49,833 nucleotides of DNA from Escherichia phage phi2013: the sequence record MT427400.3, one strand, 5' to 3'. Made by a program: the position numbers and the translations under genes. Shown piece by piece: positions 1 through 41,516 of this stretch. Numbering within the stretch: position 1 is the first letter of the stretch; the number at the start of each line of letters is the position of its first letter. A model generated the notes under the pieces. It was not told where the DNA came from. It made no database searches and was given only the letters and a program-made list of their open reading frames with translations.

Positions 1-35
1 GGATCTAGTGTGGACTGTAAGCACTGAGCGGTAAA

Positions 36-78
36 TAGCACTTTTTGTTAAAACCGGATCGGGATAACGCGGTATAGT
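36..78 (+). promoter_or_regulatory. early promoter cassette: TAGCAC-N5-TTGTTA palindrome-like box, 22-bp spacer with GC hairpin, -10 TATAGT
   Basis: tagcactttttgttaaaac at 36-54; gggataac/gttatccc dyad; TATAGT at 73-78; ATG at 110. Confidence 0.5.
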
Positions 79-109
79 TATCCCATCAACAACGAATGAG
101 AAAACGAAG

Positions 110-304
110 ATGGAAACGCAAATTGACGTAGTGGTTGTTCAGCGAGACTCAACTCATGAAAAGGGTCTGTTTAAGAAGGGAACGGAAATCACGATCGACC
201 TTGAGGATATGGTTGCTTATCACTCTGGACTTACCTGGAACGTGGTGCGCGTAGGCAGCGACTATAAACTCAAAGGCTTTAACACTTACTTTGCAGAGGC
301 TTAA
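110..304 (+). CDS. hypothetical early protein
   Basis: 64-aa ORF directly downstream of promoter cassette; stop abuts next gene. Confidence 0.5.
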   Translation: METQIDVVVVQRDSTHEKGLFKKGTEITIDLEDMVAYHSGLTWNVVRVGSDYKLKGFNTYFAEA

Positions 305-306
305 TC

Positions 307-777
307 ATGACAACCATTACCGTATTTCTGGCTAAAGATGAGATTGATGGCGAAATGTCATTCTTCGCATTTGAGCACAAAACCGGATCGCACTGGCATA
401 TGTATAGCCGCTACACGGTTATCGATATCAACTCATACCGCGCAGGCTCACTTACTGAAAAGCTGGGTTGCTTCATTGGAGCTATCAAGGTGAACAATGG
501 CTGCGAGTGGGCAGATGAGCACGAAGAGCGCCGCATGTGCAATATGATTAACCCGGTCTATCTTGAGTCGTTCGAGCTTGATGCTGATGTGAACATTAAG
601 GTGAGAAAGTCTGGTGAGTTATTGCCAGGGATGCGTGTGCTGACTGGTTACTCGGGCCGTAAGGTGTGGCGCACCGTATCGAAGATTCGCCAGCGTTCTG
701 CAACATGCTACAGCGTATTCTTTGAAGATGGCTGGAATATGATGTCCGGTAGTGAGGTGAAGTATCTCACCAAATAG
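307..777 (+). CDS. hypothetical early protein
   Basis: 156-aa ORF, tightly packed after preceding gene. Confidence 0.55.
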   Translation: MTTITVFLAKDEIDGEMSFFAFEHKTGSHWHMYSRYTVIDINSYRAGSLTEKLGCFIGAIKVNNGCEWADEHEERRMCNMINPVYLESFELDADVNIKVRKSGELLPGMRVLTGYSGRKVWRTVSKIRQRSATCYSVFFEDGWNMMSGSEVKYLTK

Positions 778-817
778 CACGAATTGTTAAAACCGGATCG
801 GGGTATCTTGCTATAGT
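775..817 (+). promoter_or_regulatory. early promoter cassette (TAGCAC-N5-TTGTTA, 22 bp, TGc-TATAGT extended -10)
   Basis: tagcacgaattgttaaaac 775-793; ggggta/tacccc dyad; TATAGT 812-817. Confidence 0.5.
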
Positions 818-855
818 TACCCCATCGAAACGAGATACCAATCAGAGGAATAACC

Positions 856-1086
856 ATGTCAATCGTCAAGAACCAGCAAGCCATCGATTAAACCAATAAC
901 AACCGCTTTGCTATTTTCATCACATCGATAGGTCGCCGATTTGCAGTCAAAGCCGTTCCGGGTGGATACAAAACCTACATGGAAGATAAAGGAAAGTGGG
1001 TGTGGTGCGAAAACCTTGCAAACTTCCTAGTCTGGAATGCAGACCTCCAGGGCTTTGATGATATCAGCACCTTAATTGAGGAATAA
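856..1086 (+). pseudogene. early ORF interrupted by in-frame TAA at 889-891 (nonsense mutation, readthrough or sequencing error)
   Basis: strong SD cagaggaa then ATG 856; 11 codons, TAA, then the same frame stays open 64 codons to 1086; no ATG to restart. Confidence 0.35.
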
Positions 1087-1092
1087 ATAATT

Positions 1093-1320
1093 ATGCCACG
1101 TTACAATAAACAGACTAAACTCACCCGCGTAAACGGGCACATGATTCCGGCTGAATCCACTCACTACGCAATGGGCGCAAAGCACGGAGTCTATTTCAAG
1201 TGGCGCGGTCAATGGAACTTCACGGCGGTTAGTAATTTCTACATGCGCGTCCCAGGTATTGACCCGCAGACGGTCGTAGAGGACTCAATCGGCAACAACA
1301 AGATCGAGGTGCTAAAATGA
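1093..1320 (+). CDS. hypothetical early protein
   Basis: 75-aa ORF. Confidence 0.5.
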   Translation: MPRYNKQTKLTRVNGHMIPAESTHYAMGAKHGVYFKWRGQWNFTAVSNFYMRVPGIDPQTVVEDSIGNNKIEVLK

Positions 1321-1423
1321 ACTTCAATACAATTGCTTTATGGTCTGCCGTCTGGTTCTTCTGTATGGGTCATGTCATGGTTGGAATCGTAGTTATGCTG
1401 CTACTGTGTGCGGGAGCGTTCGA

Positions 1424-1597
1424 ATGATGCGCATTCTGATTTGCATGATGGCGGCGGTCGCACTGGCTATCCTGGTAGTGTCCGGCTGCGGAGAGGCCAA
1501 AGAGCGATGCCATGAAACCGGAAACCAGGTTACTACTTTCGTGATGGTTGGCAACGTATTGCTACCAATCACATCAAATGAAATCACTTGCGAATAG
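1424..1597 (+). CDS. small putative lipoprotein
   Basis: SD gggag 7 nt before ATG 1424; N-terminus MMRILICMMAAVALAILVVSGC has a hydrophobic signal and lipobox-like VSGC. Confidence 0.5.
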   Translation: MMRILICMMAAVALAILVVSGCGEAKERCHETGNQVTTFVMVGNVLLPITSNEITCE

Positions 1598-1606
1598 GAT
1601 GTTAAA

Positions 1607-1798
1607 ATGGCTGATTTTATGCACCAAATGATTGCAGTATTCAAAGGTAGTGATGACCAGGAGGTGAAAGAGTGCTTTACTGTAGACAAGCCTTATAGCG
1701 CATCGCTAACCAGCTTCGGGAATATCTCATTGCTTGATGATAACGGCGACCCCTGGGTATTCGACGAAGACACTGATTGCTTCGAAATTAAAGAATAG
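1607..1798 (+). CDS. hypothetical acidic early protein
   Basis: 63-aa ORF, D/E-rich C-terminus. Confidence 0.45.
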   Translation: MADFMHQMIAVFKGSDDQEVKECFTVDKPYSASLTSFGNISLLDDNGDPWVFDEDTDCFEIKE

Positions 1799-1838
1799 CA
1801 CTTTTTGTTAAAACTCAATATCGGGGTTGCGCTATAGT
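1796..1838 (+). promoter_or_regulatory. early promoter cassette
   Basis: tagcactttttgttaaaac 1796-1814; 22-bp spacer with ggggtt/aacccc dyad; TATAGT 1833-1838. Confidence 0.5.
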
Positions 1839-1869
1839 AACCCCATCGACAACAAACGAGGACACTAAC

Positions 1870-2358
1870 ATGAAAATCAAATTGCTTTGCACTGGCGGTT
1901 ACAAGGGCTTTACTCGCGACCTGGAAGCGGATCCTATCGTGATTGATGCGGTGAAGTGTGATGATAGCCTCGGCGGCTACCGCGTGAAGGTTGACGACCT
2001 GGTGAAAGCTGGCGTGTACGATCTGGGCTATGGACTTTCGGTTAGCCCGGTAGTTGGTCCGGCAGACTTCAACGAGAAGGATGGAACGATGTTCTTCTTC
2101 GAATGGGAAGTCCAGGCAAATCCTAAGCCGCGCAAGGTTCGTCTTCTCAGTAATGGCGGCTACCCGATGCGTCCAGGTTATGAGAATCGCACATTCCCGG
2201 TTATCGTTGACTTTGAAGAAATCACCGCACACTTAGCTTATATCAACGGTGAACAGCTTCATGCTGTTGGATTCGTGGGATGTATGAATCAAGAGGCGCT
2301 ATGCTTCTTCCATTGTAAAGCCGAGCCGTTCGATATTGAGTGCGAGTTAGTATACTAA
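1870..2358 (+). CDS. hypothetical early protein
   Basis: 162-aa ORF with SD acgagg upstream. Confidence 0.55.
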   Translation: MKIKLLCTGGYKGFTRDLEADPIVIDAVKCDDSLGGYRVKVDDLVKAGVYDLGYGLSVSPVVGPADFNEKDGTMFFFEWEVQANPKPRKVRLLSNGGYPMRPGYENRTFPVIVDFEEITAHLAYINGEQLHAVGFVGCMNQEALCFFHCKAEPFDIECELVY

Positions 2359-2399
2359 GCACGAATTGTTAAAAGGGGATTTGGCCTGACTGGTATAAT
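2357..2399 (+). promoter_or_regulatory. early promoter cassette
   Basis: agcacgaattgttaaaa; 22-bp spacer; TGg-TATAAT at 2394-2399. Confidence 0.5.
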
Positions 2400-2429
2400 C
2401 CCCGCATAAACCACTAAGAGGAAAGCATC

Positions 2430-2936
2430 ATGTTAAAATTAGAAGACGTAAAATTCCCGATTAAATTTATCAGCCTAGGTTGCGGTGAAATTACATTCAC
2501 CAGTGAAGATAAAGGCAAGTGGGACAATGATAAAATGTCTCAGCTTAAGTTGGATTGGTTTATCAATCGGCACAATGAAGTAAATCCTGAAAACTCAGCC
2601 AAGAAGGATTACCATTACATTATTAGTGGTAGTCAGGATGCGTACGAAAAGTATGATGGTTGGAAAACTGTTCGATCAATCTTCCACCCCGCAAAGCCAG
2701 AAATTAAACCGATGTTACAATGCGCTCAGATCGAGAACATTCCATTGAGCGCGACGCTAAAAGGAGTGCAGCTTGATGATAAATCCTGGCTTGAAATAAC
2801 CGCCACGCCGAAAACTATTGAAGTGCACGACGATATCGTCACTCTTCTATTGCATTACGGCAGCTTTAAGCACAAAGCGGTATCAGGTGAAATCAGCATT
2901 AAGCGCGGAACACTTGTGCGCTATGAGGTGAAATAA
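2430..2936 (+). CDS. hypothetical early protein
   Basis: 168-aa ORF, SD aagagg. Confidence 0.55.
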   Translation: MLKLEDVKFPIKFISLGCGEITFTSEDKGKWDNDKMSQLKLDWFINRHNEVNPENSAKKDYHYIISGSQDAYEKYDGWKTVRSIFHPAKPEIKPMLQCAQIENIPLSATLKGVQLDDKSWLEITATPKTIEVHDDIVTLLLHYGSFKHKAVSGEISIKRGTLVRYEVK

Positions 2937-3082
2937 TGGCTGCATGGGTTTTGATTATCTTAATGAGTACCGGGCCGGATCACGTATACATGGAAAGTCA
3001 GCAATCATGAAACAAGGTACGGGAAGTAATTGCAGAGAATAAGCCGTTCGGATATGAAGTAAAAACGATGTGCGTTAAACGA

Positions 3083-3125
3083 TAGCACGAATTGCTAAAC
3101 CTTCCGCAAGGCCATTTGATATAGT
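3083..3125 (+). promoter_or_regulatory. early promoter cassette
   Basis: tagcacgaattgctaaac; TTGCTA 3092-3097; 22-bp spacer with aaggcca/tggcctt dyad; TGa-TATAGT 3120-3125. Confidence 0.5.
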
Positions 3126-3165
3126 GGCCTTATTGAAGCAAGGCAACCAATCAGAGGAATCAGCT

Positions 3166-3372
3166 ATGGCTACACGACTAACTCAGTGGCAGATTTACGA
3201 CAAGGCCTCACGCCTTCGTGAATCGCTTCGCGGACTGACGCCGAATGACCGAATGGAGATTATCGGGCACGCATTGCACGAACTAACATCTCAGGACGTA
3301 ATCTATCATTCATGCGGCAATAAATTCTGGAACGTGACATTCGAGGTAAAGAAAGATGAGCAAAACTCATAA
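3166..3372 (+). CDS. hypothetical protein
   Basis: start chosen at ATG 3166 after SD cagaggaa (track ORF begins 3124). Confidence 0.45.
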   Translation: MATRLTQWQIYDKASRLRESLRGLTPNDRMEIIGHALHELTSQDVIYHSCGNKFWNVTFEVKKDEQNS

Positions 3373-3643
3373 GTTAAAAATCGCCCCGATACATTTCATT
3401 GGTGTAATGAACGGAACCAAAACGGCAGAGTTCCGCATCAATGACCGCAACTTCCAGGTTGGTGATATCCTTGAGCTACGCGAGTTCGATCGTGACGACT
3501 TTACCGGGTGGGAAGTTCACGCCAGGGTGTCCGATGTTACAGACGTGACGCCATACATCAATCGCGGTTATGACGAGCAAGAATGCGACTTCACGCAATA
3601 CGTGATGTTATCAATCAAGCCTTACAGGAAGGTTAGACCATGA
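3356..3643 (+). CDS. ASCH/DUF3850-like (PUA-fold) protein
   Basis: 95 aa; pattern GxKTAEFRxNDRxFxVGDILxLxE recalled as typical of DUF3850/ASCH. Confidence 0.55.
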   Translation: MSKTHKLKIAPIHFIGVMNGTKTAEFRINDRNFQVGDILELREFDRDDFTGWEVHARVSDVTDVTPYINRGYDEQECDFTQYVMLSIKPYRKVRP

Positions 3644-4278
3644 AATTTGAGTGCGTATCAAGTAGCGGATCTGGTTTTAAGTGGGGAAAAACTTACAAAG
3701 GTGTTCGCGTAAATGATGACAGCTTCATCATTACTGATGAGAACGGTTGCAACGTGAACGTTGTACGGCGTCACGAATATCAGGAAATTTTCCTGCCTTA
3801 TGGCGGTAGCTCAAAATATATCTTCCATCGAATCGTGGATGGTGTTAAATTTAACGACGTAATCGAAGCAATCAACCAACTGCATAATAAAGAGGTAAAA
3901 TTTATGAAATTCGAATGTATCAGCGACAACACTAAAAAATTTACCGTTGGAAAAATTTACAACGTTCCTTCTGAGCACGCTAAGCACACTTTAGCGCTGA
4001 CCGACGACACAGGCTGCCAACGCATTGCAACCGTGACGCACAATGGCGAAGGTCTTCGCTGGAACAGCGGCGGCACTAAGTTCGCAACTTTCGGTAAGAA
4101 GCGCAAGCGCAATTTCCGCGTCAACGGCAAGATCAACACCAGCAAGATTAGCAACGTCAAGCCTATTAATGTTGACCACAAGCCAGAGCTTGATCTTAAA
4201 GGCAAGGTGGATATTCCTGATATGGCTTTAGCGATCCTTATTCTTGTTGCTCTAATTTCTATCATGCTCATCATGTAA
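3640..4278 (+). CDS. hypothetical protein with internal tandem duplication and C-terminal transmembrane anchor
   Basis: two copies of MKFEC(V/I)S...GK(T/I)Y(K/N) about 85 aa apart; C-terminus MALAILILVALISIMLIM hydrophobic. Confidence 0.55.
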   Translation: MKFECVSSSGSGFKWGKTYKGVRVNDDSFIITDENGCNVNVVRRHEYQEIFLPYGGSSKYIFHRIVDGVKFNDVIEAINQLHNKEVKFMKFECISDNTKKFTVGKIYNVPSEHAKHTLALTDDTGCQRIATVTHNGEGLRWNSGGTKFATFGKKRKRNFRVNGKINTSKISNVKPINVDHKPELDLKGKVDIPDMALAILILVALISIMLIM

Positions 4279-4285
4279 TTTTAAC

Positions 4286-4319
4286 GGGGAATTGGCTCTG
4301 AGCGGTTCCCCTTTCTTTT
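4286..4319 (+). terminator. rho-independent terminator
   Basis: gggga...tcccc stem followed by TTTCTTTT. Confidence 0.5.
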
Positions 4320-4426
4320 GGAGAAAACACTATGCCAGACTTTTCTAACTGGAATAACGAGCCGCCATCATTTCAGGAGTTGCTATTCTGCCTCCTGGTC
4401 CTGACATTATCTCTTAAGGGTGTTTT

Positions 4427-4645
4427 ATGGCTACTATCATAACAGCAGAAGATGCAGCACGCGACGCAGTGGAAGGAATGCGCCCAAATACCTCCAGAAT
4501 AGCACACTACTACAAATCTGAGGTGTCGGCAGTGCAATTGGTCAACGAAATTTTAAGGCTACCACAAGTCGATTCAGCGCGCGTGGTGACGTGCTTAAAA
4601 AATTATTTTTGCATCGCTATTAAAACGAATAGCACGAATTGCTAA
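4427..4645 (+). CDS. hypothetical protein
   Basis: 72-aa ORF. Confidence 0.4.
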   Translation: MATIITAEDAARDAVEGMRPNTSRIAHYYKSEVSAVQLVNEILRLPQVDSARVVTCLKNYFCIAIKTNSTNC

Positions 4646-4672
4646 AACCTATCAAGGGGAATGCGCTATGAT
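4630..4672 (+). promoter_or_regulatory. early promoter cassette
   Basis: tagcacgaattgctaaaac; 22-bp spacer with gggaat/attccc dyad; TATGAT 4667-4672. Confidence 0.5.
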
Positions 4673-4702
4673 TCCCATGCACCAACAAACGAGGAAGCAC
4701 TC

Positions 4703-5149
4703 ATGAAACACTTAATTTGCATTGAAACGCCTAACGACCAGCACACCCTGCACGGCATTGGAATGTTCAAAGGTCACTACATGACAGCAAGTATTCATGA
4801 TTCGCGTTGCGTCAATGGCGATCTGATGATTACGTCAAAAGAAGTAACTCCGTACATTATGCAGAATCTTGGCAATAACGAATATATGGCCTACGGATGC
4901 AATGCGGTGTACAAGCATATCAAGATCAGAAAACGCGTTGTTCGCGCATTCAAGAAAATTGCAATGAAACAATGGAAGATGAGCAAGAAAGATGCTGGAC
5001 GCTGGGCGCGTAACGTTGCAGATTCATACTTCTACCGTAACGGTGAGTCCTGCCACTTCCTTATCGATGAACTTATGGAAAACTACGGCGGCGACTTCAG
5101 TCAGGGTGGCTTTGACGCTTGGGCTGACTACGAGGTCGATTACTGGTAA
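4703..5149 (+). CDS. hypothetical protein
   Basis: start at ATG 4703 after SD acgagga; 148 aa. Confidence 0.5.
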   Translation: MKHLICIETPNDQHTLHGIGMFKGHYMTASIHDSRCVNGDLMITSKEVTPYIMQNLGNNEYMAYGCNAVYKHIKIRKRVVRAFKKIAMKQWKMSKKDAGRWARNVADSYFYRNGESCHFLIDELMENYGGDFSQGGFDAWADYEVDYW

Positions 5150-22764: not shown

Positions 22765-22777
22765 CACCTCATGACAA

Positions 22778-22802
22778 AAGCCCGCCTTGCGCGGGTTTTT
22801 TT
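22778..22802 (+). terminator. rho-independent terminator
   Basis: cccgc cttgc gcggg then T7; same hairpin as 24958-24982. Confidence 0.55.
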
Positions 22803-22843
22803 GTAGCTGTAGAATGGTTGCAACTAAACAAGAGGAAAAGACA

Positions 22844-23626
22844 ATGAGCGAAAACAAAAAACTTTATGATGAAGAAAGCGGAAAGAGCCTGTTTCACAAC
22901 TGCCTTCAGTCACTGTATCCAGGGGAGATAATCACACTGATTGAAGTTGATGGTAGCAAGTTCGGCGCTCAGGTTTACAGATTTCACGGAGAGAATATCC
23001 AGTACACTCCAGAAGAAATAATGCAGGCCCAGCAAACCGGAACACTACCGCCGAAAGAAATTACATTCCGTGGTGAGCAATACGGAGCGCGCCCGTTCGG
23101 TATATCCGGGATCTCGTTTGATAGTTCCGGCAAGGCAACAAAACCACAATTAACAGTGGCAAATATTGATAGCAGAGTGTCGGCAATGATTCGCGCATAT
23201 AACGGATTGATGCAGGCGAAGGTGACAATCTGGATCACTCAAAAGGACTTAATTCAACCTGACGGCTCAATCGCTGATGGAGCTTACCGTAAACTGGTAT
23301 ACTATATCGAACGCCCGAGCTATGTCGATAAGAGTGTTGCGTGGTTCGATCTCACATCACCGTATGATATGGATGGCATCATGATCCCATCTCGACTCAC
23401 ACAAAGCGTATGCTATTGGGCGCAGCGTGGATGGTATAAAACCGGGAAGGGCTGCGGATATAACGGGCAAAACGGTTACTTTGATAAAGACAATAACCCG
23501 GTAGATGATCCTTCACTGGACTTTTGCCCAGGAACGGTAACGGCCTGCCGCCTGCGATTCGGCGCAAACAATGAATTGGATTTTGGCGGTTGCGCTGTCG
23601 CTTCACTACAGAGGAAAAATCAATGA
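22844..23626 (+). CDS. minor tail protein (lambda L-like)
   Basis: SD aagagga before ATG 22844; C-terminal Cys cluster (C..C...C...C) as recalled for Fe-S-binding gpL. Confidence 0.65.
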   Translation: MSENKKLYDEESGKSLFHNCLQSLYPGEIITLIEVDGSKFGAQVYRFHGENIQYTPEEIMQAQQTGTLPPKEITFRGEQYGARPFGISGISFDSSGKATKPQLTVANIDSRVSAMIRAYNGLMQAKVTIWITQKDLIQPDGSIADGAYRKLVYYIERPSYVDKSVAWFDLTSPYDMDGIMIPSRLTQSVCYWAQRGWYKTGKGCGYNGQNGYFDKDNNPVDDPSLDFCPGTVTACRLRFGANNELDFGGCAVASLQRKNQ

Positions 23627-25030: not shown

Positions 25031-28000
25031 ATGATTCAAAAAGTGATAAGTGGATCTAAAGGCGGCTCGCCTAAGCCTCATAATCCAGTTGAGATGGAAG
25101 ACAATCTAATCTCAATCAACAAAATCAAGATCCTGTTAGCTGTATCTGATGGTGAAATTGACGAAACATTCAGCCTGAAGCAGTTGATGTTTAACTCAGT
25201 CCCGGTGCAAAACGAGGATGGATCGTTCAACTTCGAAGGGGTAAAGGCTGAGTTCAGGCCGGGAACTCAGACGCAGGAATACATCAAGGGCATGGAGGAT
25301 AGTTCCAGCGAGGTAACTGTAAATCGTGAGGTTACTACCGATAACCCATACACGATCTCAGTGACCAATAAAACACTATCGGCAATACGCATCAAAATGT
25401 TCATGCCTCGCGGCGTACGAATTGAAAGTAACGGTGATAAAAATGGCGTAAGAGTTGAGTATGAGGTGCAACAAGCTGTTGATGGCGGTTCGTTTGAGAC
25501 TGTTCTTACTGACGTAATTGAAGGCAAAACAATGTCAGGTTACGACAGAAGTCGACGTGTAAACCTGCCTAGCTTTAACAACCAGGTAATATTCAGAGTT
25601 GTTCGAAAGACTCCAGACTCTAACGACTCTAACGTTGTTGATGCGATCCAGGTAAAGAGCTATGCCGAGGTGATTGATGCCAAATTCCGTTACCCTCTGA
25701 CAGGTCTTCTTTTCGTCGAGTTCGACTCGAAGATGTTCCCAAACCAGTTACCTACGATCTCAATTCGTAAGCGCTGGAAGATTGTAAACGTTCCATCAAA
25801 CTACGATCCGGAATCACGAACCTACAACGGCAATTGGGATGGGACTTTCAAGAAGGCGTGGACTAACAACCCGGCATGGGTTCTATACGATCTGATGATT
25901 AATCAGCGCTACGGTCTGGATCAGAAGGAGCTTGGAATCTCCGTCGATAAATGGGCGCTCTACGAGGCCGCGCAATATTGCGATCAGATGGTTCCTGATG
26001 GGAAGGGCGGGACGGAGCCTAGATACCTTTGCGACGTGATAATTCAGTCACAGACTGATGCGTACAAGGTGATTCGAGATATTTGCTCAATATTCCGTGG
26101 CATGAGCTTCTGGAATGGTGAAAGCATCTCGGTAATCATCGACAGACCGCGTGAGCCTGCGTACATCTTCACTAACGACAACGTTGTTAATGGTGACTTC
26201 TCCTATACGTTCGCAAGCGAAAAGAGTATGTACACGACGTGTAACGTGATGTTTGACGATGAACAAAACATGTATCAACAGGACGTTGAGCCAGTATTCG
26301 ATCGTGAGGCGACTCTGCGGTTCGGTAATAACGTAACCAGCATTACAGCGATAGGTTGCACGCGTCGAAGCGAGGCTAACCGACGAGGGCGATGGATTCT
26401 GAAGACCAACCTTCGCAGCACTACGGTAAACTTCGCGACCGGACTGGAAGGGATGATCCCGACAATCGGAGATGTTGTGGCAATAGCTGATAACTTCTGG
26501 TCAAGTAACTTGACGATGAACCTATCAGGGCGCTTGCTCGAAGTGTCTGGAAGTCAGATTTTCTTGCCGTTCCGTGTGGATGCACGAGCGGGTGACTTTA
26601 TTATCGTAAATAAGCCAGATGGCAAGCCCGTGAAGCGCACAATCTCAAGCGTTAGTGCGGATGGCAAGACTATAGAGATTAACATCGGCTTTGGCTTTCC
26701 TGTAAAGCCTAACACGGTATTCGCTATCGACAGAACCGACATTGCGTTACAGCAGTACGTCGTGACAAAAATCGATAAGGGCGATGATGACGAGGAATTT
26801 ACCTACAAAATCACGGCGGTGGAGTACGATCCTAACAAGTACGATGAGATTGATTACGGAGTTAACATCGACGACAGGCCGACGAGCATCGTTGAACCAG
26901 ATCAGATCCCTAGACCGGAAAACGTGCAAGTGTCCTCAGAGTCGAGAATCGTCCAGGGGATGAGCGTAGAAACGATGATTGTTAGCTGGGATAAAGTGCC
27001 GTACGCAGTTTTCTATGACGTACAGTGGAGAAAGGATAACGGCAACTGGCAAAACGTTCCGCAGACAGCAAACAAAGAGGTTTATGTTGAAGGGATTTAC
27101 GCTGGCAACTATCAGGTTCGCGTTCGCTCCGTAGCTGGTTCCGGTACGACTTCAGGATGGTCAAATGTCGTAGCTGCGACGCTGACGGGCAAACAAGGTG
27201 AGCCGGGTGGACCGATTAACCTTACAGCTACGGATGATGTTGTTTTTGGTATCCGTACAAAATGGGGGTTCTCTGATGGTTCTGGAGATACGGCCTATAC
27301 AGAGTTGCAACAGTCACCAGATGGAACAGTGGATAACGCAAGTTTGCTTTCTTTGATTCCGTACCCGCAGCATGAGTATTATCACTCACCGATGCCTGGA
27401 GGGAATATTGTTTGGTATCGTGTAAGGACGGTTGATAGGATCGGTAACGTGTCTCAGTGGACTGATTTTGTCAGAGGTATGGCATCAACAAACGTTGACG
27501 ATATCATTGGGGAGATTTCTGTCGATATCGAAAACTCGCCGGGTTACGAGTGGCTTGTTGATAACGCAACCGACAACGCGGCGCAGAACGCAGCTAACGC
27601 AGAGGCAGCAATAGAAAACGCGCTCGCCAATGACAAAGACGCGATCTACATGAAGAAGGAGAACGGAAAACGAAAAGCTGAGTACACGAAATCACTGAAA
27701 CTTATTGCTGATGAGACGCAGGCGCGAGTGACGGCGATCGAGCAATTGAAGGCAAGTTTTGGCGATCAGATTAGCGCTAGCAACAGCGAATTGCGTGAAG
27801 TTATCGCAACTGAGACTGGAGCGCTATCGCGTGAAATTGACCAACTCAGGGCAGAGATTGGTGATGATATCCAGGCAAGTTTGACCGATATCAGAGAGGC
27901 TATAGCAAACGAGACTGAGGCGAGAACGCAAGCTGACTTGTCGTTAAGCGCGAGGCTTGGGAATAATGAGGCAGCACTTTCTCAAAAACTTGATTCGTGG

Positions 28001-28450
28001 AGCAATGCAGATTCGACTGGTGCAATGTACGGCGTCAAGCTCGGTCTGAAGTATAACGGCCAAGAATACAGTGCAGGCATGGCTATGTCTCTGATTGGTT
28101 CCGGAGCTGCGGTTAAGGCGCAGATTTTGTTTGAGGCATCACGATTTGCCATCATGAATGGAATGAATGGTCAGACTCAGTACCCATTCGTTGTTGAGAA
28201 TGGCCAGGTTATTTTAAGTAGCGCGATTATCAAGAACGGATTCATCACTAACGCAATGATTGGAAACTTCATCCAGTCGAATAACTATGTATTTAACCAG
28301 TCCGGATGGAGTCTTGACAAGGGTGGAACATTCGAAAACTACGGAAGTGACGGTGAGGGTGCAATGAAGCAAACTAATACCACAATATCTGTTATGGATG
28401 CGAGTGGTCGCCTGAGGGTTCAGATTGGCAGGTTGACTGGTTCATGGTAA
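25031..28450 (+). CDS. tail tip / host specificity protein (lambda J-like)
   Basis: 1139 aa immediately after M-L-K-I-like genes. Confidence 0.8.
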   Translation: MIQKVISGSKGGSPKPHNPVEMEDNLISINKIKILLAVSDGEIDETFSLKQLMFNSVPVQNEDGSFNFEGVKAEFRPGTQTQEYIKGMEDSSSEVTVNREVTTDNPYTISVTNKTLSAIRIKMFMPRGVRIESNGDKNGVRVEYEVQQAVDGGSFETVLTDVIEGKTMSGYDRSRRVNLPSFNNQVIFRVVRKTPDSNDSNVVDAIQVKSYAEVIDAKFRYPLTGLLFVEFDSKMFPNQLPTISIRKRWKIVNVPSNYDPESRTYNGNWDGTFKKAWTNNPAWVLYDLMINQRYGLDQKELGISVDKWALYEAAQYCDQMVPDGKGGTEPRYLCDVIIQSQTDAYKVIRDICSIFRGMSFWNGESISVIIDRPREPAYIFTNDNVVNGDFSYTFASEKSMYTTCNVMFDDEQNMYQQDVEPVFDREATLRFGNNVTSITAIGCTRRSEANRRGRWILKTNLRSTTVNFATGLEGMIPTIGDVVAIADNFWSSNLTMNLSGRLLEVSGSQIFLPFRVDARAGDFIIVNKPDGKPVKRTISSVSADGKTIEINIGFGFPVKPNTVFAIDRTDIALQQYVVTKIDKGDDDEEFTYKITAVEYDPNKYDEIDYGVNIDDRPTSIVEPDQIPRPENVQVSSESRIVQGMSVETMIVSWDKVPYAVFYDVQWRKDNGNWQNVPQTANKEVYVEGIYAGNYQVRVRSVAGSGTTSGWSNVVAATLTGKQGEPGGPINLTATDDVVFGIRTKWGFSDGSGDTAYTELQQSPDGTVDNASLLSLIPYPQHEYYHSPMPGGNIVWYRVRTVDRIGNVSQWTDFVRGMASTNVDDIIGEISVDIENSPGYEWLVDNATDNAAQNAANAEAAIENALANDKDAIYMKKENGKRKAEYTKSLKLIADETQARVTAIEQLKASFGDQISASNSELREVIATETGALSREIDQLRAEIGDDIQASLTDIREAIANETEARTQADLSLSARLGNNEAALSQKLDSWSNADSTGAMYGVKLGLKYNGQEYSAGMAMSLIGSGAAVKAQILFEASRFAIMNGMNGQTQYPFVVENGQVILSSAIIKNGFITNAMIGNFIQSNNYVFNQSGWSLDKGGTFENYGSDGEGAMKQTNTTISVMDASGRLRVQIGRLTGSW

Positions 28451-28495
28451 TATCAAGGGCATCGAGAGATGCCATTTTCTTTTGGAGGATTTATT

Positions 28496-28801
28496 ATGGC
28501 GTACGGTATATCAACTTGGGACGCAAATGGCGTTTATAATAACTATGGAATTAAGCCTGTTACGGTTGTTGGTTGGAACTTTTTGTCAGCAGGACAGAAT
28601 TCAGCATCGTTCAGCTATCAAGTTCCTCCTGGTATGCATGTGAACTACGTTATAAGCCTTGACGATGGCGCCATTAGTGGGCCTGGCAGGAAAATTATTG
28701 CTAGCGGTAATACGATAACAGTAACGCCAACAAACTCACCTGGGCCAAACGTGTACCCATCATCAAACTGTTACTTAATAGCATATCTGGAGAATGATTA
28801 A
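28496..28801 (+). CDS. hypothetical tail-associated protein
   Basis: SD ggagg before ATG 28496; 101 aa. Confidence 0.45.
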   Translation: MAYGISTWDANGVYNNYGIKPVTVVGWNFLSAGQNSASFSYQVPPGMHVNYVISLDDGAISGPGRKIIASGNTITVTPTNSPGPNVYPSSNCYLIAYLEND

Positions 28802-29490
28802 TGTCATACGGTGCTTTTATAGATGTAAACGGAAACCCATTCATAACCCCGTTATCCACGCCATTCGCCTTATATGAGAGAGGGGAAATTCAATCAGTAA
28901 ATGTTAGTGGTTCACAGGTTGCGGAGAGATATGTTCGGATACCTACAGGTGTTCCGGTTATAGCTTTTTGCAAAACAACAAACACGCAGCAGGGGACCGC
29001 GCTTTCAGCCTTTACTTTCAGAAGCGGACCCAATGTTGGAACTGTTTATATAAGGGGGACAAATCCAGCAAACCAATCATACACGCTAACATACTACATA
29101 TTTGCCATATTTGAGCAGTCACTACCGAGCTGGGGTATGGCAATATGGGATTCGTCAGGAAAGCTAGTGCTGACAAATGAGACAAAAGTCCTTAGTGATT
29201 TGGTTACAATCGGCACTCCTGGATACGCTGGAGGTGGATTAAACATAGACACAACACTCAGCGGAAGCTACGCAGTTGTTCCAACTATACTTGGCAACTA
29301 TCAAATTGTTATTGGCAGGCTGCCAACTGGGCAACCCATAATAGGAAACTCAACAGCAGGCAGCTCATGCAGGTACAACGGGAGCGCAACTAGGATAAAT
29401 GCAGCAGCAACCACAGCGGCAGGTCAGATAATGAACACCACGAATAATGGAAATATCATAACAGCAATCAACACAGCAGCGTATGACTAA
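28801..29490 (+). CDS. hypothetical tail-associated protein
   Basis: 229 aa, overlapping start/stop. Confidence 0.5.
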   Translation: MSYGAFIDVNGNPFITPLSTPFALYERGEIQSVNVSGSQVAERYVRIPTGVPVIAFCKTTNTQQGTALSAFTFRSGPNVGTVYIRGTNPANQSYTLTYYIFAIFEQSLPSWGMAIWDSSGKLVLTNETKVLSDLVTIGTPGYAGGGLNIDTTLSGSYAVVPTILGNYQIVIGRLPTGQPIIGNSTAGSSCRYNGSATRINAAATTAAGQIMNTTNNGNIITAINTAAYD

Positions 29491-29514
29491 GCCCCTTGCG
29501 GGGCTTTTCTTTTA
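29490..29514. terminator. bidirectional rho-independent terminator
   Basis: gcccc ttgc ggggc then T-rich; separates convergent genes. Confidence 0.55.
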
Positions 29515-29739
29515 TATCGAGCAATCGTGAGACTTGAAGTTTTTCTCTGATACGTAGTTGAATGAGAATGGGTATCCAGCACGCAATAGCATCTCCTCTC
29601 CGCGCATCTTAGATCCAAAAACGTAAACCGAGTACTCTGCGCCTCCTGATTCATAAATTGCCGTACAAGTGCGCTCAGGCATCGATGAGCAACCAGTCAG
29701 GATGAATGCCGCAGCGATAATGGTGATTAACTTTTTCAT
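29512..29739 (-). CDS. outer-membrane lipoprotein, possible Cor/Llp-type superinfection exclusion factor
   Basis: N-terminus MKKLITIIAAAFILTGC has signal peptide and lipobox LTGC; 75 aa; SD gagga; next to tail genes. Confidence 0.5.
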   Translation of the reverse strand: MKKLITIIAAAFILTGCSSMPERTCTAIYESGGAEYSVYVFGSKMRGEEMLLRAGYPFSFNYVSEKNFKSHDCSI

Positions 29740-29819
29740 TTGTATGTCCTCGTCGTTAGTGTGATTGCATTGTATGTCGCATTTACTTTTATTGCAATAG
29801 CACTATTACAATTTTTTCG

Positions 29820-29835
29820 TGTAACAGGTGTCTAT
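29820..29835. repeat. iteron-like direct repeat copy 1 (TGTAACAGGTGTCTAT)
   Basis: second copy at 29961-29976, inverted related copy at 30168-30184. Confidence 0.6.
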
Positions 29836-29901
29836 TTTTGTAACCGGAGCGGGTGTTACAAAATCCACCCCATCCGACCGCAGAGGGATATGATAAAAAC
29901 T

Positions 29902-29918
29902 CTATATAATATATATAG
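29902..29918. repeat. 17-bp AT-rich repeat CTATATAATATATATAG (copy 1)
   Basis: exact second copy at 49001-49017. Confidence 0.65.
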
Positions 29919-29960
29919 ATAGATAATATTTAATTTTAGCTTTATATATAATTATTGTTG

Positions 29961-29976
29961 TGTAACAGTTGTCTAT
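29961..29976. repeat. iteron-like direct repeat copy 2 (TGTAACAGTTGTCTAT)
   Basis: 15/16 identical to 29820-29835. Confidence 0.6.
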
Positions 29977-30263
29977 TGTGTAACTGGTGATTTGATTGAT
30001 TCGTCAAATTTCTATCATATATGTTCAAAATTTAATCAATATGGATTCTACTTGTAGCTATCTCTGTATTTCTAAGAAAAAGCGGTTACAAGTATTACAC
30101 AGTAGACATCACATAAAAATAGACTTAAGCCATTGATTCCGTTAATGCTGGTTGTAACTTGAGCGATATAGACACGCTATTACACACCAATTACATGTAT
30201 CCGATTGACTAAACGCTGTTAATGGCTATAATGGATTCATCGTAAACGAAGGAGATAAACGCA

Positions 30264-31328
30264 ATGTTCCAAGTATTCACATCAAGTCAGCTTTCTAATG
30301 ACGAGTATCATAGCAACGAAGGTTGGGCGGCAGAGTATGTAAGCGGTTCGAGCCTTGCAGAAATTTATCAGACTTGCCCGGCTAACTGGCGATTCAAGAA
30401 GAACGAGACGACTAAAGCGCTGGAGTTTGGCACTCAGTCGCACACCAACTTTGAGAGCCGAGATCTGTTTACTGCATCGTATGCGCGTTGTCCGGCTCCG
30501 GCAGAGTTTAAAGATCTCATTACTTCGCAGGCGGCGCTGGCAGCAAAATTAAAATCTTTTGGCCTGAAAGGCACATCCGGTAAGCAGTACCCGGACCTCA
30601 TCAAAATGATGGTTGATTGTGGCGAAGACCTTAACGTTCAATACCTGATTGAACTGATCGCAGAGGCTGAGGCGCGCGCTGAAGGAAAGAAACTCGTCGA
30701 CGCTGATAAATACGACGCCTGCATGAAGATGAGAGCTATACTTGAACAGAACCCCGATCATGAAGCGTGCATCAACAGCGAAACAGCGCAGCGTGAAATC
30801 TCAATATTCGGTGAAATATCCGGCGTCAAGGTTAAGGTTCGACTAGATCATCTTGACTACAAAGAGAATGTACCAGGTCGTGTACTGACTGGTTATGATG
30901 AGAATGGTGATCCGGTATTTGAAGGCGTAATTTTCCCGGAAGCACTGATTATCACAGATTTCAAAACTACGATGAGCGCCAACCCGTTAGAGTTCCCGAG
31001 ACTGGCATACAATCACGGTTATTACCTGAAGATGGCATTGCAGCATGACCTGCTACGTCGCGCAATCCAGGCTGGCGCTTTTGAAGGAAACTTCCCGGAA
31101 GATATTCCGATCGTAGTTCGATTGCTTGCGCAGGAGAAAAAAGAGCCTTATATCGCACTGGCTTACCGTATGACTATGGAGCAAATCAGGATCGGTCGTA
31201 ACCAGTACATTAGCGTAGTCCACACTTACAAGGCTTGCTCTGAAATGGATGTTTGGCCTGGGTACGCTGGCGACGCAAGCGAGATCGAACTTGAAACGCC
31301 ATCATGGGTGCGTTACCAAAATAAGTAA
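30264..31328 (+). CDS. recombination exonuclease, PD-(D/E)XK RecE/YqaJ-like
   Basis: 354 aa directly upstream of Erf and SSB; IITDFKTT resembles the D-x-K core of PD-(D/E)XK nucleases. Confidence 0.5.
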   Translation: MFQVFTSSQLSNDEYHSNEGWAAEYVSGSSLAEIYQTCPANWRFKKNETTKALEFGTQSHTNFESRDLFTASYARCPAPAEFKDLITSQAALAAKLKSFGLKGTSGKQYPDLIKMMVDCGEDLNVQYLIELIAEAEARAEGKKLVDADKYDACMKMRAILEQNPDHEACINSETAQREISIFGEISGVKVKVRLDHLDYKENVPGRVLTGYDENGDPVFEGVIFPEALIITDFKTTMSANPLEFPRLAYNHGYYLKMALQHDLLRRAIQAGAFEGNFPEDIPIVVRLLAQEKKEPYIALAYRMTMEQIRIGRNQYISVVHTYKACSEMDVWPGYAGDASEIELETPSWVRYQNK

Positions 31329-40330: not shown

Positions 40331-41482
40331 ATGTCACAAGCTAAAATCACTACCGAGCAACTTGTCGAAGAGCGCATGAACGGCCTTACACTTCGCGAGA
40401 TCGCGGAAAAGTACGGTATGCATATTCGAACTGTTGAGGCTCGACACGCAAAATTGGCAAAAGAAGGCCACTTTCACGGCAATGAGCATGTTGCTAAAAA
40501 CGTTCCTGAAGGCTTCATGGTAAAAGGCACATCAACAATGATTCGCGGTGATGGGACTGAGGTCGTGCGATGGGTTAAGACCGATCAGGACCGTGAGAAG
40601 ATTGCAGCTATGATGGAAGCTGCACGCATTGCATTTTGTGAAGACTTGCCGCGAGCAAAGCCAACTGAGCTGCTCACATCGCAAGGTCTTACAACCTCTA
40701 TTGGAAAGCTGGCACTATACCCGGTGTTCGATCTTCACATTGGCGCGCTTGCTCATAAGCATGAATGTGGAGAGAACTACTCTACCGACGTAGCGGAAAA
40801 AGTGCTTAGCGACTTCTTTAATTACGCGATCGATATTGCTCCGAACGCAGAGAAGGCCGTTCTTTTAATCGGCGGTGACTTCCTTCACTCGGACGGTCTT
40901 GATGCTGTTACCCCGGCAAGTGGTCACGTTCTGGATCAGGATTCACGATATGCAAAATTGGTGCATGTAGCTATTAGATCTGTTCGTCGCGCTATCGACA
41001 AAATGCTACTGAAACACAAAGAAGTCGAGGTCCAGGTTATCGAAGGGAACCACGATCAGTCTGGGATGATTTGGCTGCGCGCTGCAATGTCGGCATATTA
41101 TGAAGACGAGCCGCGAGTATTCGTTGACGTTAGTCCTATGATTCTGCATAAGACTCGTTGGGGAAATACCTTGTTGGGATACACTCACGGGCACACTATG
41201 AAAAAGGCAGAGACTCGACTCGCAGCTATGGCAGCAGATTTCCGCGCAGATTTTGGTGAAAGCAAATACGTGTACACGCATAGCGGTCACTGGCATCACC
41301 AGACAATCACTGAGCACTCACTCGGTATTGATGAGGTTCACGGCCAGTTAGGCGCGAAAGACGCATACGCAGCACGAGGAGGGTGGCGCTCGTATCGCCA
41401 GGCGGCTGTAATTGTTTACGATAAGCAATTTGGGGAAATCGGTCGTTTCATCTATCGTCCAGAAATGACAGGATCGCACTAA
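40331..41482 (+). CDS. calcineurin-like metallophosphoesterase with N-terminal HTH
   Basis: GDFLH, GNHD, GH and GHWHH metallophosphatase motifs; N-terminal LTLREIAEKYGMHIRTV helix-turn-helix. Confidence 0.65.
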   Translation: MSQAKITTEQLVEERMNGLTLREIAEKYGMHIRTVEARHAKLAKEGHFHGNEHVAKNVPEGFMVKGTSTMIRGDGTEVVRWVKTDQDREKIAAMMEAARIAFCEDLPRAKPTELLTSQGLTTSIGKLALYPVFDLHIGALAHKHECGENYSTDVAEKVLSDFFNYAIDIAPNAEKAVLLIGGDFLHSDGLDAVTPASGHVLDQDSRYAKLVHVAIRSVRRAIDKMLLKHKEVEVQVIEGNHDQSGMIWLRAAMSAYYEDEPRVFVDVSPMILHKTRWGNTLLGYTHGHTMKKAETRLAAMAADFRADFGESKYVYTHSGHWHHQTITEHSLGIDEVHGQLGAKDAYAARGGWRSYRQAAVIVYDKQFGEIGRFIYRPEMTGSH

Positions 41483-41516
41483 TTGATAAAAACTCCCGAA
41501 GGGATTCGGGCATAGT
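41476..41516 (+). promoter_or_regulatory. promoter cassette
   Basis: gcactaattgataaaaac; 22-bp spacer with cccgaa/ttcggg hairpin; CATAGT. Confidence 0.4.

What the first reader, a model, noticed from the sequence alone, without database searches (positions are those of the whole stretch)
1424..1597. Two small predicted lipoproteins, one early and one beside the tail genes
The early 57-aa product at 1424-1597 and the 75-aa leftward product at 29512-29739 both carry signal peptides with lipobox cysteines (VVSGC, LTGC). Phages using outer-membrane receptors often encode small lipoproteins that block their own receptor (Cor of phi80/N15, Llp of T5). The 29512-29739 gene sits in the typical place for such a factor, next to the receptor-binding genes. 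Two candidates in one genome is notable.
Basis: partly seen in the sequence, partly recalled or inferred. Interest (0 to 1): 0.45.

Follow-up and report, generated by a model that had tools for sequence, protein, structure and literature searches.

The report
T1 Cor plus an orphan hairpin lipoprotein
This T1-like coliphage carries the already known receptor-blocking lipoprotein Cor, and a second tiny lipoprotein that is not a Cor relative but a stripped-down member of a widespread, unnamed phage family of membrane-tethered beta-hairpins of unknown function.

Summary
Both ORFs are real, and both have canonical lipoprotein signal peptides. The window is a T1-like phage (Tunavirus, 100% identical to JMPW1/IME167 over the stretches tested).

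**29512-29739 (-)** is Cor of T1: 97% identical, above the NCBIfam Cor cut-off, and in the usual place after the J-like tail gene. It is already known.

**1424-1597 (+)** is T1 ORF72, annotated everywhere as hypothetical.
- It is under purifying selection (pN/pS 0.15).
- It has a good Shine-Dalgarno site and the lipobox VSGC.
- It shows no detectable relation to Cor, Llp, spanins or any Pfam, NCBIfam or PADLOC family.

Profile searches place ORF72 in a previously unnamed family of about 70 clusters, all found in phage-like contigs. Members share an N-terminal membrane anchor followed by a Cys-bracketed beta-hairpin.
- About 80% of members outside Tunavirus have a plain transmembrane helix; the rest have a lipobox.
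- The hairpin motif is TT[YF]VMVG[KN]V[ML]VP.
- The two cysteines are present together or absent together (45 both, 4 neither, 0 single).
- No neighbouring gene is conserved with it.
- Some Tunavirus phages lack the gene altogether.

This argues against a receptor-specific blocker. It fits a stand-alone periplasmic effector acting on a conserved envelope target. The function is unknown, and an exclusion-type role is my guess. The genome also has a third lipoprotein, the u-spanin.

The parts
1424..1597 (+). 57-aa prolipoprotein gene (T1 ORF72 orthologue; phrog_8628). The mature product is 36 aa, C22-E57.
   Evidence: ORF. Annotated as a hypothetical protein in JMPW1 and T1. phrog_8628 E 2.5e-29. 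pN/pS 0.15.
1412..1416 (+). Shine-Dalgarno GGGAG, 7 nt upstream of the ATG at 1424
   Evidence: Sequence read. T1 annotates an RBS at the equivalent place.
1424..1489 (+). Signal peptide (residues 1-21) and lipobox VSG-C22. The Cys codon is 1487-1489 and the +2 residue is Gly.
   Evidence: PROSITE-like lipobox rule with h-region hydrophobicity 2.93. AF2 predicts a helix over residues 2-21. Conserved in 18 of 21 Tunavirus-type clusters.
1508..1591 (+). Cys29...Cys56-bracketed beta-hairpin (strands 31-42 and 45-56, turn G43-N44, invariant P48). This is the conserved functional core, motif TTFVMVGNVLLPIT.
   Evidence: AF2 pLDDT 84-91 over the hairpin. pN/pS 0.03 for residues 36-57. G43 and P48 are invariant across the family. 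The Cys pair covaries.
1317..1427 (+). 36-aa single-TM ORF (T1 ORF73). ATGA overlaps join it to the genes on both sides. It is a neighbour specific to Tunavirus, not a conserved partner.
   Evidence: phrog_25570 E 3e-27. pN/pS 0.10. Absent next to relatives in L023 and in all other contexts.
1093..1320 (+). 75-aa upstream gene (T1 ORF74, DUF7274), translationally coupled. It is widespread in Drexlerviridae without the lipoprotein.
29512..29739 (-). Cor superinfection-exclusion lipoprotein (T1 ST30). Lipobox LTG-C17, with Cys25 and Cys73.
   Evidence: NF047972 at 52.6 bits, above the cut-off of 31. phrog_1119. 97% identical to T1 Cor. Annotation in T1 and JMPW1.
25031..29490 (+). J-like tail tip gene (25031-28450) and the two small genes that accompany Cor: the ST32-like gene (about 28496-28801) and the ST31-like gene (28801-29490).
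   Evidence: phrog_557 and phrog_425. The Cor cassette is described in PMC13164509.
42541..42945 (+). Third lipoprotein: the T1-type unimolecular spanin (lipobox LSG-C23, C-terminal TM helix).
   Evidence: phrog_1804 'Rz-like spanin' E 9e-48.

Best explanation
**Cor (shown).** 29512-29739 is Cor, the known outer-membrane lipoprotein of T1, phi80 and N15. [quoted passage not shown]

**The 57-aa product (shown).**
- 1424-1597 encodes a real exported protein.
- Its N-terminus is a canonical SPase II signal.
- Its 36-aa mature part is a single hydrophobic beta-hairpin bracketed by two cysteines.
- It is a minimal, lipid-anchored member of a widespread, unnamed, phage-restricted family.
- In that family the anchor is interchangeable between a transmembrane helix and a lipid, and only the hairpin is conserved.

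**How it works (inferred).**
- The two cysteines form a disulfide that closes the hairpin in the periplasm.
- The anchor merely holds the hairpin at a membrane surface facing the periplasm.
- The hairpin is hydrophobic on both faces and has no core of its own. It therefore works by docking onto, or beta-augmenting, a periplasm-exposed component that is conserved across very different hosts.
- It acts alone, without a phage partner, during lytic growth.

**Role (my commitment, weakly supported).** It remodels the infected cell envelope, most likely to exclude other phages or block entry routes at a step other than the phage's own receptor. It is not a Cor/Llp-type receptor mask.

**Confidence.** The overall figure of 0.55 is a blend: about 0.9 for the identity and anatomy claims and about 0.35 for the proposed role.
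For: **Cor.**. Mechanism from PMC9586334 and PMC13164509.

**ORF72 is a real gene.**
- pN/pS is 0.15 overall and 0.03 in the hairpin; the alternative frames give 1.0-2.0.
- Shine-Dalgarno site.
- Present in 54 GenBank T1-like records.

**Lipoprotein signal.**

**Hairpin structure.** AF2 with two alignments gives strands 31-42 and 45-56 at pLDDT 84-91.

**Family membership.**
- An exhaustive profile search of 1.8e9 proteins finds remote small lipoproteins at E about 5e-4.
- Iterated searches reach about 70 clusters.
- An HMM built only from 42 non-Tunavirus members scores ORF72 at 21.4 bits and its mature part at 23.2 bits (P about 1e-8). Cor scores 0.7 bits.

**Disulfide.**
- Among 49 non-Tunavirus members, 45 have both Cys, 4 have neither and none has only one.
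- The arm lengths change together: 15/13, 13/11, 16/14, 20/18.

**Anchor is interchangeable.**
- About 10 of 49 members have a lipobox; the rest have a TM helix.
- Within T1-like phages, P0020 and P0027 have a TM anchor, DELF2 has C22F and SH6 has G21V. All keep an intact hairpin.

**Stand-alone gene.** No homologous neighbours across 11 contexts.

**Phage contexts in early, replication or nin-like regions.**

**Accessory gene.** Eco_BIFF lacks it but has Cor and plates on K-12.
Against: **No functional data.** There are none for any family member, and no paper mentions the family.

**Localisation is unresolved.** Under the +2 rule (general knowledge), +2 Gly sends the protein to the outer membrane. 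The TM-anchored relatives must sit in the inner membrane. A single membrane-proximal target is therefore hard to reconcile unless the target is soluble, spans the envelope, or the lipoprotein is retained in the inner membrane.

**Disulfide geometry is imperfect.** In the AF2 model Cys29 lies two residues outside the strand that pairs with Cys56.

**Hosts of most relatives are unknown.** The 'Bacillota' assignment of L041 rests on 67-71% blastn matches and Pfam context.

**One possible lysis link.** One relative sits directly upstream of an M15 endolysin-like gene.

**The exclusion role is a guess by analogy.**
Confidence: 0.55

Rival explanations
1. One reading: the 57-aa lipoprotein is a second Cor/Llp/Rtp45-type factor. 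It would sit in the inner leaflet of the outer membrane and allosterically mask an outer-membrane receptor (FhuA or another).
For: - It is a small lipoprotein with no Asp at +2.
- Like Cor and Llp, it has an intramolecular Cys pair tying the region just after the lipid anchor to the C-terminus: Cor C25/C73, ORF72 C29/C56. The Llp-Cor disulfide is noted in PMC9586334.
- hhalign aligns the lipobox-Cys-strand region of the two at 31% probability.
- Rtp45 binds LptD by beta-sheet addition (PMC12685063).
Against: - No significant sequence or fold similarity.
- It is not next to the receptor-binding genes.
- The family is mostly TM-anchored, which cannot reach the outer membrane.
- The hairpin is conserved across phages of unrelated hosts, including a probable Gram-positive one. 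Receptor masks co-vary with the receptor.
- In GenBank phages it is confined to Tunavirus, whereas Cor accompanies FhuA use in several other groups (PMC13164509).
- Eco_BIFF has Cor without it.
Confidence: 0.12
2. A membrane-active peptide. The doubly hydrophobic hairpin tip dips into, or oligomerises in, the membrane it is tethered to. This would alter permeability or membrane potential, as a host-takeover or toxin-like small protein, with no specific protein target.
For: - The tip FVMVG-NVLLPI is hydrophobic on both faces (sequence).
- In lipoprotein members the tether is only 3-8 residues long.
- This works with any anchor and in any host, which fits the interchangeable anchors and the broad distribution.
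- No partner genes.
Against: - Motif conservation is very strict: invariant G and P, near-invariant GKVMVP, and pN/pS 0.03. That is more typical of a specific protein interface than of lipid insertion.
- Only about 5 residues per strand are hydrophobic, too few to span a bilayer.
Confidence: 0.12
3. A lysis accessory. The hairpin would modulate the holin, endolysin or spanin step or its timing, comparable in logic to the periplasmic antiholin RI of T4.
For: - One relative (P0053, L044) lies between a 40-aa TM protein plus a 96-aa protein and an M15_3 peptidase.
- In a P22-portal phage the gene lies in the nin-like stretch about 1.6 kb upstream of the holin and lysozyme.
Against: - In T1-like phages the gene is far from the holin-endolysin-u-spanin cassette (42.5 kb against 1.4 kb).
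- In most other contexts it sits among replication or early genes.
- No lysis gene is a conserved neighbour.
- Eco_BIFF lyses without it.
Confidence: 0.1
4. A TonB-box mimic. The first strand, (E)xVTT[YF]VMVG, resembles TonB boxes of the (D/E)T[ILM][VT]V[TS]A type as I recall them. It would occupy the TonB C-terminal domain by strand addition and shut off TonB-dependent entry by T1, phi80 and colicins. TonB could be reached from either membrane.
For: - The resemblance is recalled from memory, not tested.
- T1 infection needs TonB (general knowledge).
- A target that spans the periplasm would reconcile lipid-anchored and TM-anchored forms.
Against:
- A family member occurs in a probable Bacillota phage, where there is no TonB.
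- A seven-residue resemblance is easily chance.
Confidence: 0.07
5. The 57-aa ORF is a chance ORF or a decaying gene with no function.
For: - Frameshifted or truncated versions exist in some assemblies (P0019, P0021, P0022, tv008).
- The gene is missing in Eco_BIFF.
Against: - Strong frame-specific purifying selection.
- Family-wide motif and Cys covariation.
Confidence: 0.02

Closest known systems
Cor (phage exclusion lipoprotein of T1, phi80, N15, HK022, mEp167; NCBIfam NF047972, phrog_1119)
   Same: The 75-aa gene at 29512-29739 is a member: it scores above the curated cut-off, is 97% identical to T1 Cor, and has the same position and orientation after the J/ST32/ST31 genes. The 57-aa product shares only the general design: a small lipoprotein whose Cys pair ties the N-proximal region to the C-terminus.
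   Different: The 57-aa product has no significant sequence relation to Cor (0.7 bits reciprocal; hhalign 31%). Its mature part is 36 aa, against 58 aa for Cor. It lies elsewhere in the genome, and it belongs to a family that is mostly TM-anchored.
Llp of T5/BF23 and Rtp45 of Rtp (structurally characterised exclusion lipoproteins acting on FhuA and LptD from the periplasmic side; PMC9586334, PMC12685063)
   Same: These are small phage lipoproteins made during lytic infection. Llp has an intramolecular disulfide, and Rtp45 binds its target partly by beta-sheet addition. The hairpin could do the same.
   Different: There is no sequence hit in the PDB chain set and no Foldseek hit. Llp and Rtp45 are encoded next to the receptor-binding protein and co-vary with the receptor. 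The hairpin family does neither.
Inner-membrane or cytoplasmic-membrane exclusion proteins (T4 Imm/Sp, HK97 gp15, P22 SieA, lactococcal Sie2009, S. thermophilus Ltp)
   Same: These are small, membrane-anchored, extracytoplasm-facing, stand-alone phage proteins that act after adsorption. They occur in phages of both Gram-negative and Gram-positive hosts. This is the closest functional analogy for the family as a whole.
   Different: There is no sequence relation (PHROGs, Pfam and PADLOC gave nothing). Those proteins are larger and mostly helical. The analogy is from general knowledge and was not tested.
Spanins (o-spanin Rz1; T1 gp11 u-spanin) and colicin lysis lipoproteins
   Same: They are of similar size (30-40 aa mature lipoproteins), and Rz1 uses Cys for disulfides.
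   Different: The gene is not in a lysis cassette and has no i-spanin partner. It is not proline-rich. There is no PF02402 hit and no significant spanin HMM hit. The window has its own u-spanin at 42541-42945.

Membership tests
Bacterial lipoprotein precursor (SPase II substrate), tested on the 57-aa product | Positively charged n-region, hydrophobic h-region, and lipobox [LVI][ASTVI][GAS]C within residues 15-35 | tested here: met
   R3, h-region I4-V19 with mean Kyte-Doolittle 2.93, and V-S-G-C22. SignalP and LipoP were not available.
Bacterial lipoprotein precursor (SPase II substrate), tested on the 57-aa product | The lipobox Cys is conserved in orthologues | tested here: inconclusive
   18 of 21 Tunavirus-type clusters keep it. 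P0020 and P0027 have a plain TM anchor, DELF2 has C22F, SH6 has G21V and P0018 has G21C. About 80% of the wider family have no lipobox.
Bacterial lipoprotein precursor (SPase II substrate), tested on the 57-aa product | Diacylglyceryl modification and globomycin-sensitive cleavage | not testable with these tools
   Needs labelling or mass spectrometry.
Cor (NF047972 / phrog_1119), tested on the 75-aa product | Profile match above the curated cut-off | tested here: met
   52.6 bits against a cut-off of 31. phrog_1119 E 4.7e-30. 97% identity to T1 Cor.
Cor (NF047972 / phrog_1119), tested on the 75-aa product | Encoded just downstream of the J-like tail gene, with the two accompanying small genes | tested here: met
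Cor (NF047972 / phrog_1119), tested on the 75-aa product | Blocks FhuA-dependent phages | not testable with these tools
   Taken from the literature on homologues.
Cor / Llp / Rtp45 exclusion lipoproteins, tested on the 57-aa product | Sequence or fold relation to a known member | tested here: not met
   No Pfam, NCBIfam, PHROG or PADLOC hit to these families. The family HMM gives Cor 0.7 bits. hhalign probability 31%. PDB sequence and Foldseek searches were negative.
Cor / Llp / Rtp45 exclusion lipoproteins, tested on the 57-aa product | Genetic linkage to the receptor-binding locus and co-variation with the receptor | tested here: not met
   The gene is 28 kb from the J locus. Relatives lie in early or replication regions. 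Eco_BIFF has Cor but not this gene.
Spanins, tested on the 57-aa product | Located in the lysis cassette, with an i-spanin partner or a C-terminal TM helix | tested here: not met
   The real u-spanin is at 42541-42945.
Unnamed phage 'anchored Cys-bracketed hairpin' family (defined here) | Significant score against a profile built without T1-like sequences | tested here: met
   21.4 bits for the full protein and 23.2 bits for the mature part, P about 1e-8. In the forward direction, E is about 5e-4 in 1.8e9 proteins.
Unnamed phage 'anchored Cys-bracketed hairpin' family (defined here) | N-terminal membrane anchor, Cys at G-14/15 and G+13, invariant turn Gly, and Pro five residues later | tested here: met
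   C29, G43, P48 and C56.

The most novel reading that the evidence does not exclude
T1 ORF72 and its roughly 70 relatives define a new class of phage envelope effector. It would be a 30-residue, disulfide-closed, doubly hydrophobic beta-hairpin tethered to either membrane by a lipid or a TM helix. It would dock by strand addition onto a conserved periplasm-exposed machine and thereby block entry of competing phages, or otherwise reprogram the envelope. This would be an exclusion principle independent of the phage's own receptor, shared by phages of unrelated hosts.
Probability: 0.3. Interest if true: 0.7.

Novelty: new variant of a known kind. Interest (0 to 1): 0.42.

Why it matters
Cor needs no further attention.

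The 57-aa gene matters modestly. About half of the genes of the classical phage T1 are still of unknown function. This one now has three things going for it:
- a clear, testable anatomy: export signal, lipid anchor and a stapled hairpin with two invariant residues;
- a link to a sizeable phage-only family that no database names;
- small size, stand-alone organisation and occurrence in an easy model system (T1 or JMPW1 on E. coli K-12).

One expression plasmid and one deletion mutant could assign a function to the whole family.

If the target turns out to be a conserved envelope machine, the hairpin would also be a natural peptide ligand for it, in the way thanatin and darobactin are for Lpt and Bam. 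That analogy is from general knowledge.

Tried and rejected
**Family and structure searches on the 57-aa product.**
- Pfam, NCBIfam and PADLOC gave nothing significant.
- PHROGs gave only its own unknown-function family.
- A PDB sequence profile search gave only an archaellin at E 0.08, which is noise.
- Foldseek of two AF2 models found no match with E < 0.07 in either the PDB or BFVD.

**ORF73 as a partner or a duplicate of the hairpin.** Rejected. It scores 4 bits against the family HMM and is absent from every non-Tunavirus context.

**A conserved neighbour gene across 11 contexts.** None found.

**Prophage copies in 185,579 species genomes.**
- Two degenerate-DNA scans for MVGKVMVP(Q) found 0 and 17 stretches. 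None was a small membrane protein.
- Three larger Planctomycetota and Gemmatimonas proteins carry the octapeptide but have no Pfam domain.

**GenBank phages.**
- tblastn with remote members P0026 and P0035 gave no significant or no match.
- blastn of the 91-kb-contig locus gave no match.

**Other lines.**
- The promoter and terminator scan of 1-5000 showed nothing above shuffles.
- Literature searches for the family, the motif, or a second T1 lipoprotein found nothing.
- The TonB-box-mimic idea is kept only as a low-probability rival, because it rests on a remembered 7-residue resemblance and a member occurs in a probable Gram-positive phage.

Full report
**What the window is.** Megablast of 1000-3000 and 28400-30300 gives 100% identity to Escherichia phages JMPW1 (NC_041874) and IME167, and 86-97% identity to T1 and some 60-75 other E. 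coli and Shigella T1-like phages. The window is therefore essentially a complete Tunavirus genome (Drexlerviridae).

**Check of the observation.**
- Both ORFs are present as described.
- The 57-aa product has n-region R3, a 17-residue hydrophobic core and the lipobox V-S-G-C22, with Gly at +2.
- A GGGAG lies 7 nt upstream of its ATG.
- The 75-aa product has the lipobox L-T-G-C17.
- A PROSITE-style lipobox rule applied to all 1,638 start/ORF combinations of at least 30 aa picks both products. It also picks a third real gene, 42541-42945, which has a C-terminal TM helix and matches the spanin family phrog_1804 at E 9e-48. This is the T1-type unimolecular spanin.
- The motif by itself is weak evidence. 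Shuffled windows give 4.6 loose and 0.67 strict matches on average, against 8 and 4 in the real window.
- The decisive evidence is evolutionary. Across 12 T1-like loci the 57-aa frame has pN/pS 0.15, falling to 0.03 in residues 36-57. The two other frames over the same DNA give 1.05 and 2.01.

**The gene beside the tail genes is Cor.**
- It scores 52.6 bits on NCBIfam NF047972 'phage exclusion lipoprotein Cor' (cut-off 31) and E 4.7e-30 on phrog_1119.
- It is 97% identical to T1 ST30.
- It has the same position and orientation as in T1, after the J-like gene and the two small genes ST32 and ST31.
- RefSeq already labels it 'Cor superinfection exclusion protein' in JMPW1 and its relatives.
- The mechanism is taken from the literature on relatives. 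[quoted passage not shown] Cor shares about 20% identity with Llp, including the disulfide, and is thought to act alike (PMC9586334). An AF3 model docks a T1-like Cor on the periplasmic side of FhuA (PMC13164509).
- This half of the finding is correct and already known.

**The 57-aa gene is T1 ORF72.**
- It is annotated 'hypothetical protein' in T1 (AAP49928) and JMPW1.
- UniRef's automatic name for the Shfl1 copy is 'Lipoprotein'.
- It has no Pfam, NCBIfam or PADLOC match. Its PHROG (8628) has no function assigned.
- tblastn finds it in 54 GenBank phage records, all E. coli or Shigella T1-like.
- It is accessory. Tunavirus Eco_BIFF, isolated on K-12, keeps Cor and the flanking genes ORF71 and ORF70 but lacks ORF74, ORF73 and ORF72.
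- The Klebsiella T1-like phages keep ORF74 (DUF7274) but follow it with an unrelated soluble protein.
- In the window the gene is linked by ATGA overlaps to a 36-aa single-TM ORF (1317-1427, T1 ORF73). ORF73 is unannotated in JMPW1 but is under purifying selection (pN/pS 0.10).

**Structure.**
- AlphaFold2 with a T1-like alignment, and again with a broader one, gives a signal-peptide helix (residues 2-21) followed by one long beta-hairpin.
- The strands are 31-42 and 45-56, the turn is G43-N44, and pLDDT over the hairpin is 84-91.
- Cys29 and Cys56 sit at the open end of the hairpin.
- The tip, FVMVG-NVLLPI, is hydrophobic on both faces.
- Foldseek finds nothing significant in the PDB, which contains Llp-FhuA, or in BFVD.

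**A larger family.**
- An exhaustive profile search of 1.84 billion representatives with the T1-like alignment returned, beyond close relatives, three 58-65-aa lipoproteins. They have E about 5e-4 and the same C...TTYVMVGKVMVPI...C core.
- Iterating added more members.
- It also added a 75-aa TM-anchored protein from a 38%-GC IMG/VR contig.
- A final search gave about 70 clusters at E < 1e-3. They are 58-118 aa long, and none has a Pfam domain or a meaningful name.
- The family consensus is a short cytoplasmic N-terminus, a TM helix, and then SPTFSLKKSEWxCTxSHTETYTTYVMVGKVMVPQTTTSTVCDQYKR.
- As a reciprocal test, an HMM built only from 42 non-T1-like members scores the window's protein at 21.4 bits and its mature part at 23.2 bits (P about 1e-8). 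Cor scores 0.7 bits and ORF73 scores 4 bits.
- Two features give independent structural support. Of 49 non-T1-like members, 45 have both cysteines, 4 have neither and none has only one. When one arm of the hairpin changes length the other follows: 15/13, 13/11, 16/14, 20/18.
- G43 and P48 are invariant.

**The anchor is interchangeable.**
- Only about 10 of the 49 members have a lipobox. The rest have a plain TM helix.
- Even among T1-like sequences, P0020 and P0027 have a TM anchor, DELF2 has C22F and SH6 has G21V. All of these keep an intact hairpin.

**Contexts are all phage-like and unrelated to one another.**
- A 91-kb contig with a long array of overlapping small genes.
- A phage with a Mu-type portal and an SNF2 helicase.
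- A P22-portal temperate phage, where the gene lies in the nin-like stretch after a NinI-type phosphatase.
- A PolA/integrase phage, where the gene directly precedes an M15_3 peptidase.
- Three further contexts.
- A probable Bacillota phage, carrying DUF3954 and Phage_ABA_S, with blastn matches to Aeribacillus, Geobacillus and Bacillus phages.
- An all-against-all comparison of flanking proteins finds no conserved neighbour.
- Motif scans of one genome per bacterial species found no small membrane protein of this type.

**What this means for mechanism.**

Shown:
- The product is an exported, membrane-anchored protein, lipid-anchored in this phage.
- Its hairpin is under very strong constraint.
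- It stands alone, is accessory, is restricted to phages and is widely distributed.

Inferred:
- The cysteines form a disulfide.
- The hairpin lacks a core and is hydrophobic on both faces, so it works by binding something, plausibly by strand addition as Rtp45 does on LptD (PMC12685063).
- That target is conserved across hosts and is not a particular outer-membrane receptor.

There is no homology, no linkage to the receptor-binding locus and no co-variation with the receptor. Most relatives are anchored in the wrong membrane. It does share the design principle of a small lipoprotein closed by a disulfide.

I commit, at low confidence, to an envelope-remodelling or exclusion role exerted at a step other than the phage's own receptor. 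The rivals are a membrane-active peptide, a lysis accessory and a TonB-box mimic. The last rests only on a remembered resemblance and is weakened by the probable Gram-positive member.

One tension remains unresolved. The +2 rule (general knowledge) predicts outer-membrane sorting for the T1 form, whereas the TM-anchored relatives must be in the inner membrane.

**Novelty and verdict.** Cor is already known. ORF72 as a lipoprotein is noted only by automatic annotation. Its family, its hairpin anatomy and the anchor swapping appear undescribed in the searchable literature. This is a modestly interesting, cleanly testable orphan rather than a surprise.

Noticed in passing
This is the T1 gp11-type unimolecular spanin, at the end of the lysis cassette.
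   Followed up: partly
window 1317-1427 (+): A 36-aa single-TM ORF (T1 ORF73, phrog_25570). It is not annotated in the JMPW1 RefSeq record but is under purifying selection (pN/pS 0.10). It is joined to both neighbours by ATGA start/stop overlaps. It is unrelated to the hairpin family and absent beside relatives outside Tunavirus.
   Followed up: yes
L016 (phage DELF2) and L013 (phage SH6), orthologues of window 1484-1489: Natural isolates with a broken lipobox (C22F in DELF2, G21V in SH6) but an intact hairpin. Logan and ENA clusters P0019, P0021 and P0022 are +1 frameshift or truncated forms. In phage vB_SsoS_008 (L005) the whole ORF74-72 stretch is frameshifted. Whether these are sequencing errors or real decay is unknown.
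   Followed up: partly
P0029 (103 aa, on a 49,985-bp contig), compared with window 1424-1535 and about 4100-4278: A fusion protein joining the first 37 residues of ORF72 to the C-terminal TM tail of the 212-aa product of 3640-4278. This implies a natural deletion of about 2.6 kb that removes the hairpin and several early genes.
   Followed up: no
L025 (Eco_BIFF) 40421-41748: This Tunavirus has a single 79-aa gene where the window has the block from 110 to 1798. It lacks ORF74, ORF73 and ORF72 and yet grows on K-12.
   Followed up: partly
window 1607-1798 (+): A 63-aa gene (phrog_11551) lying between ORF72 and ORF71. It has no counterpart in T1 itself. This is an indel between close relatives.
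   Followed up: partly
L044 9595-10694: In a PolA/integrase phage contig, a 58-aa lipoprotein member of the hairpin family sits between a 40-aa TM protein plus a 96-aa protein and a Peptidase_M15_3 (endolysin-like) gene, with overlapping stop and start codons. This is the only context that hints at a link to lysis.
   Followed up: partly
L049 4259-5047, L060 2239-3024, L054 4554-5150: Cellular proteins of about 200-260 aa from two Planctomycetota MAGs and one Gemmatimonas MAG contain the exact octapeptide MVGKVMVP after a beta-strand-like stretch. They have no Pfam domain. Whether they are related to the phage hairpin or match by chance is unknown.
   Followed up: partly
window 22769-22897 (-): A 42-aa antisense ORF inside the tail-gene region also passes the strict lipobox rule (LFSC). 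It is probably a chance match and illustrates the false-positive rate of the motif.
   Followed up: no
window 1093-1320 (+): The upstream 75-aa gene (T1 ORF74, Pfam DUF7274) is far more widespread than the lipoprotein: 358 phage records, including about 290 Klebsiella T1-like phages and one Yersinia phage. Its function is unknown.
   Followed up: partly
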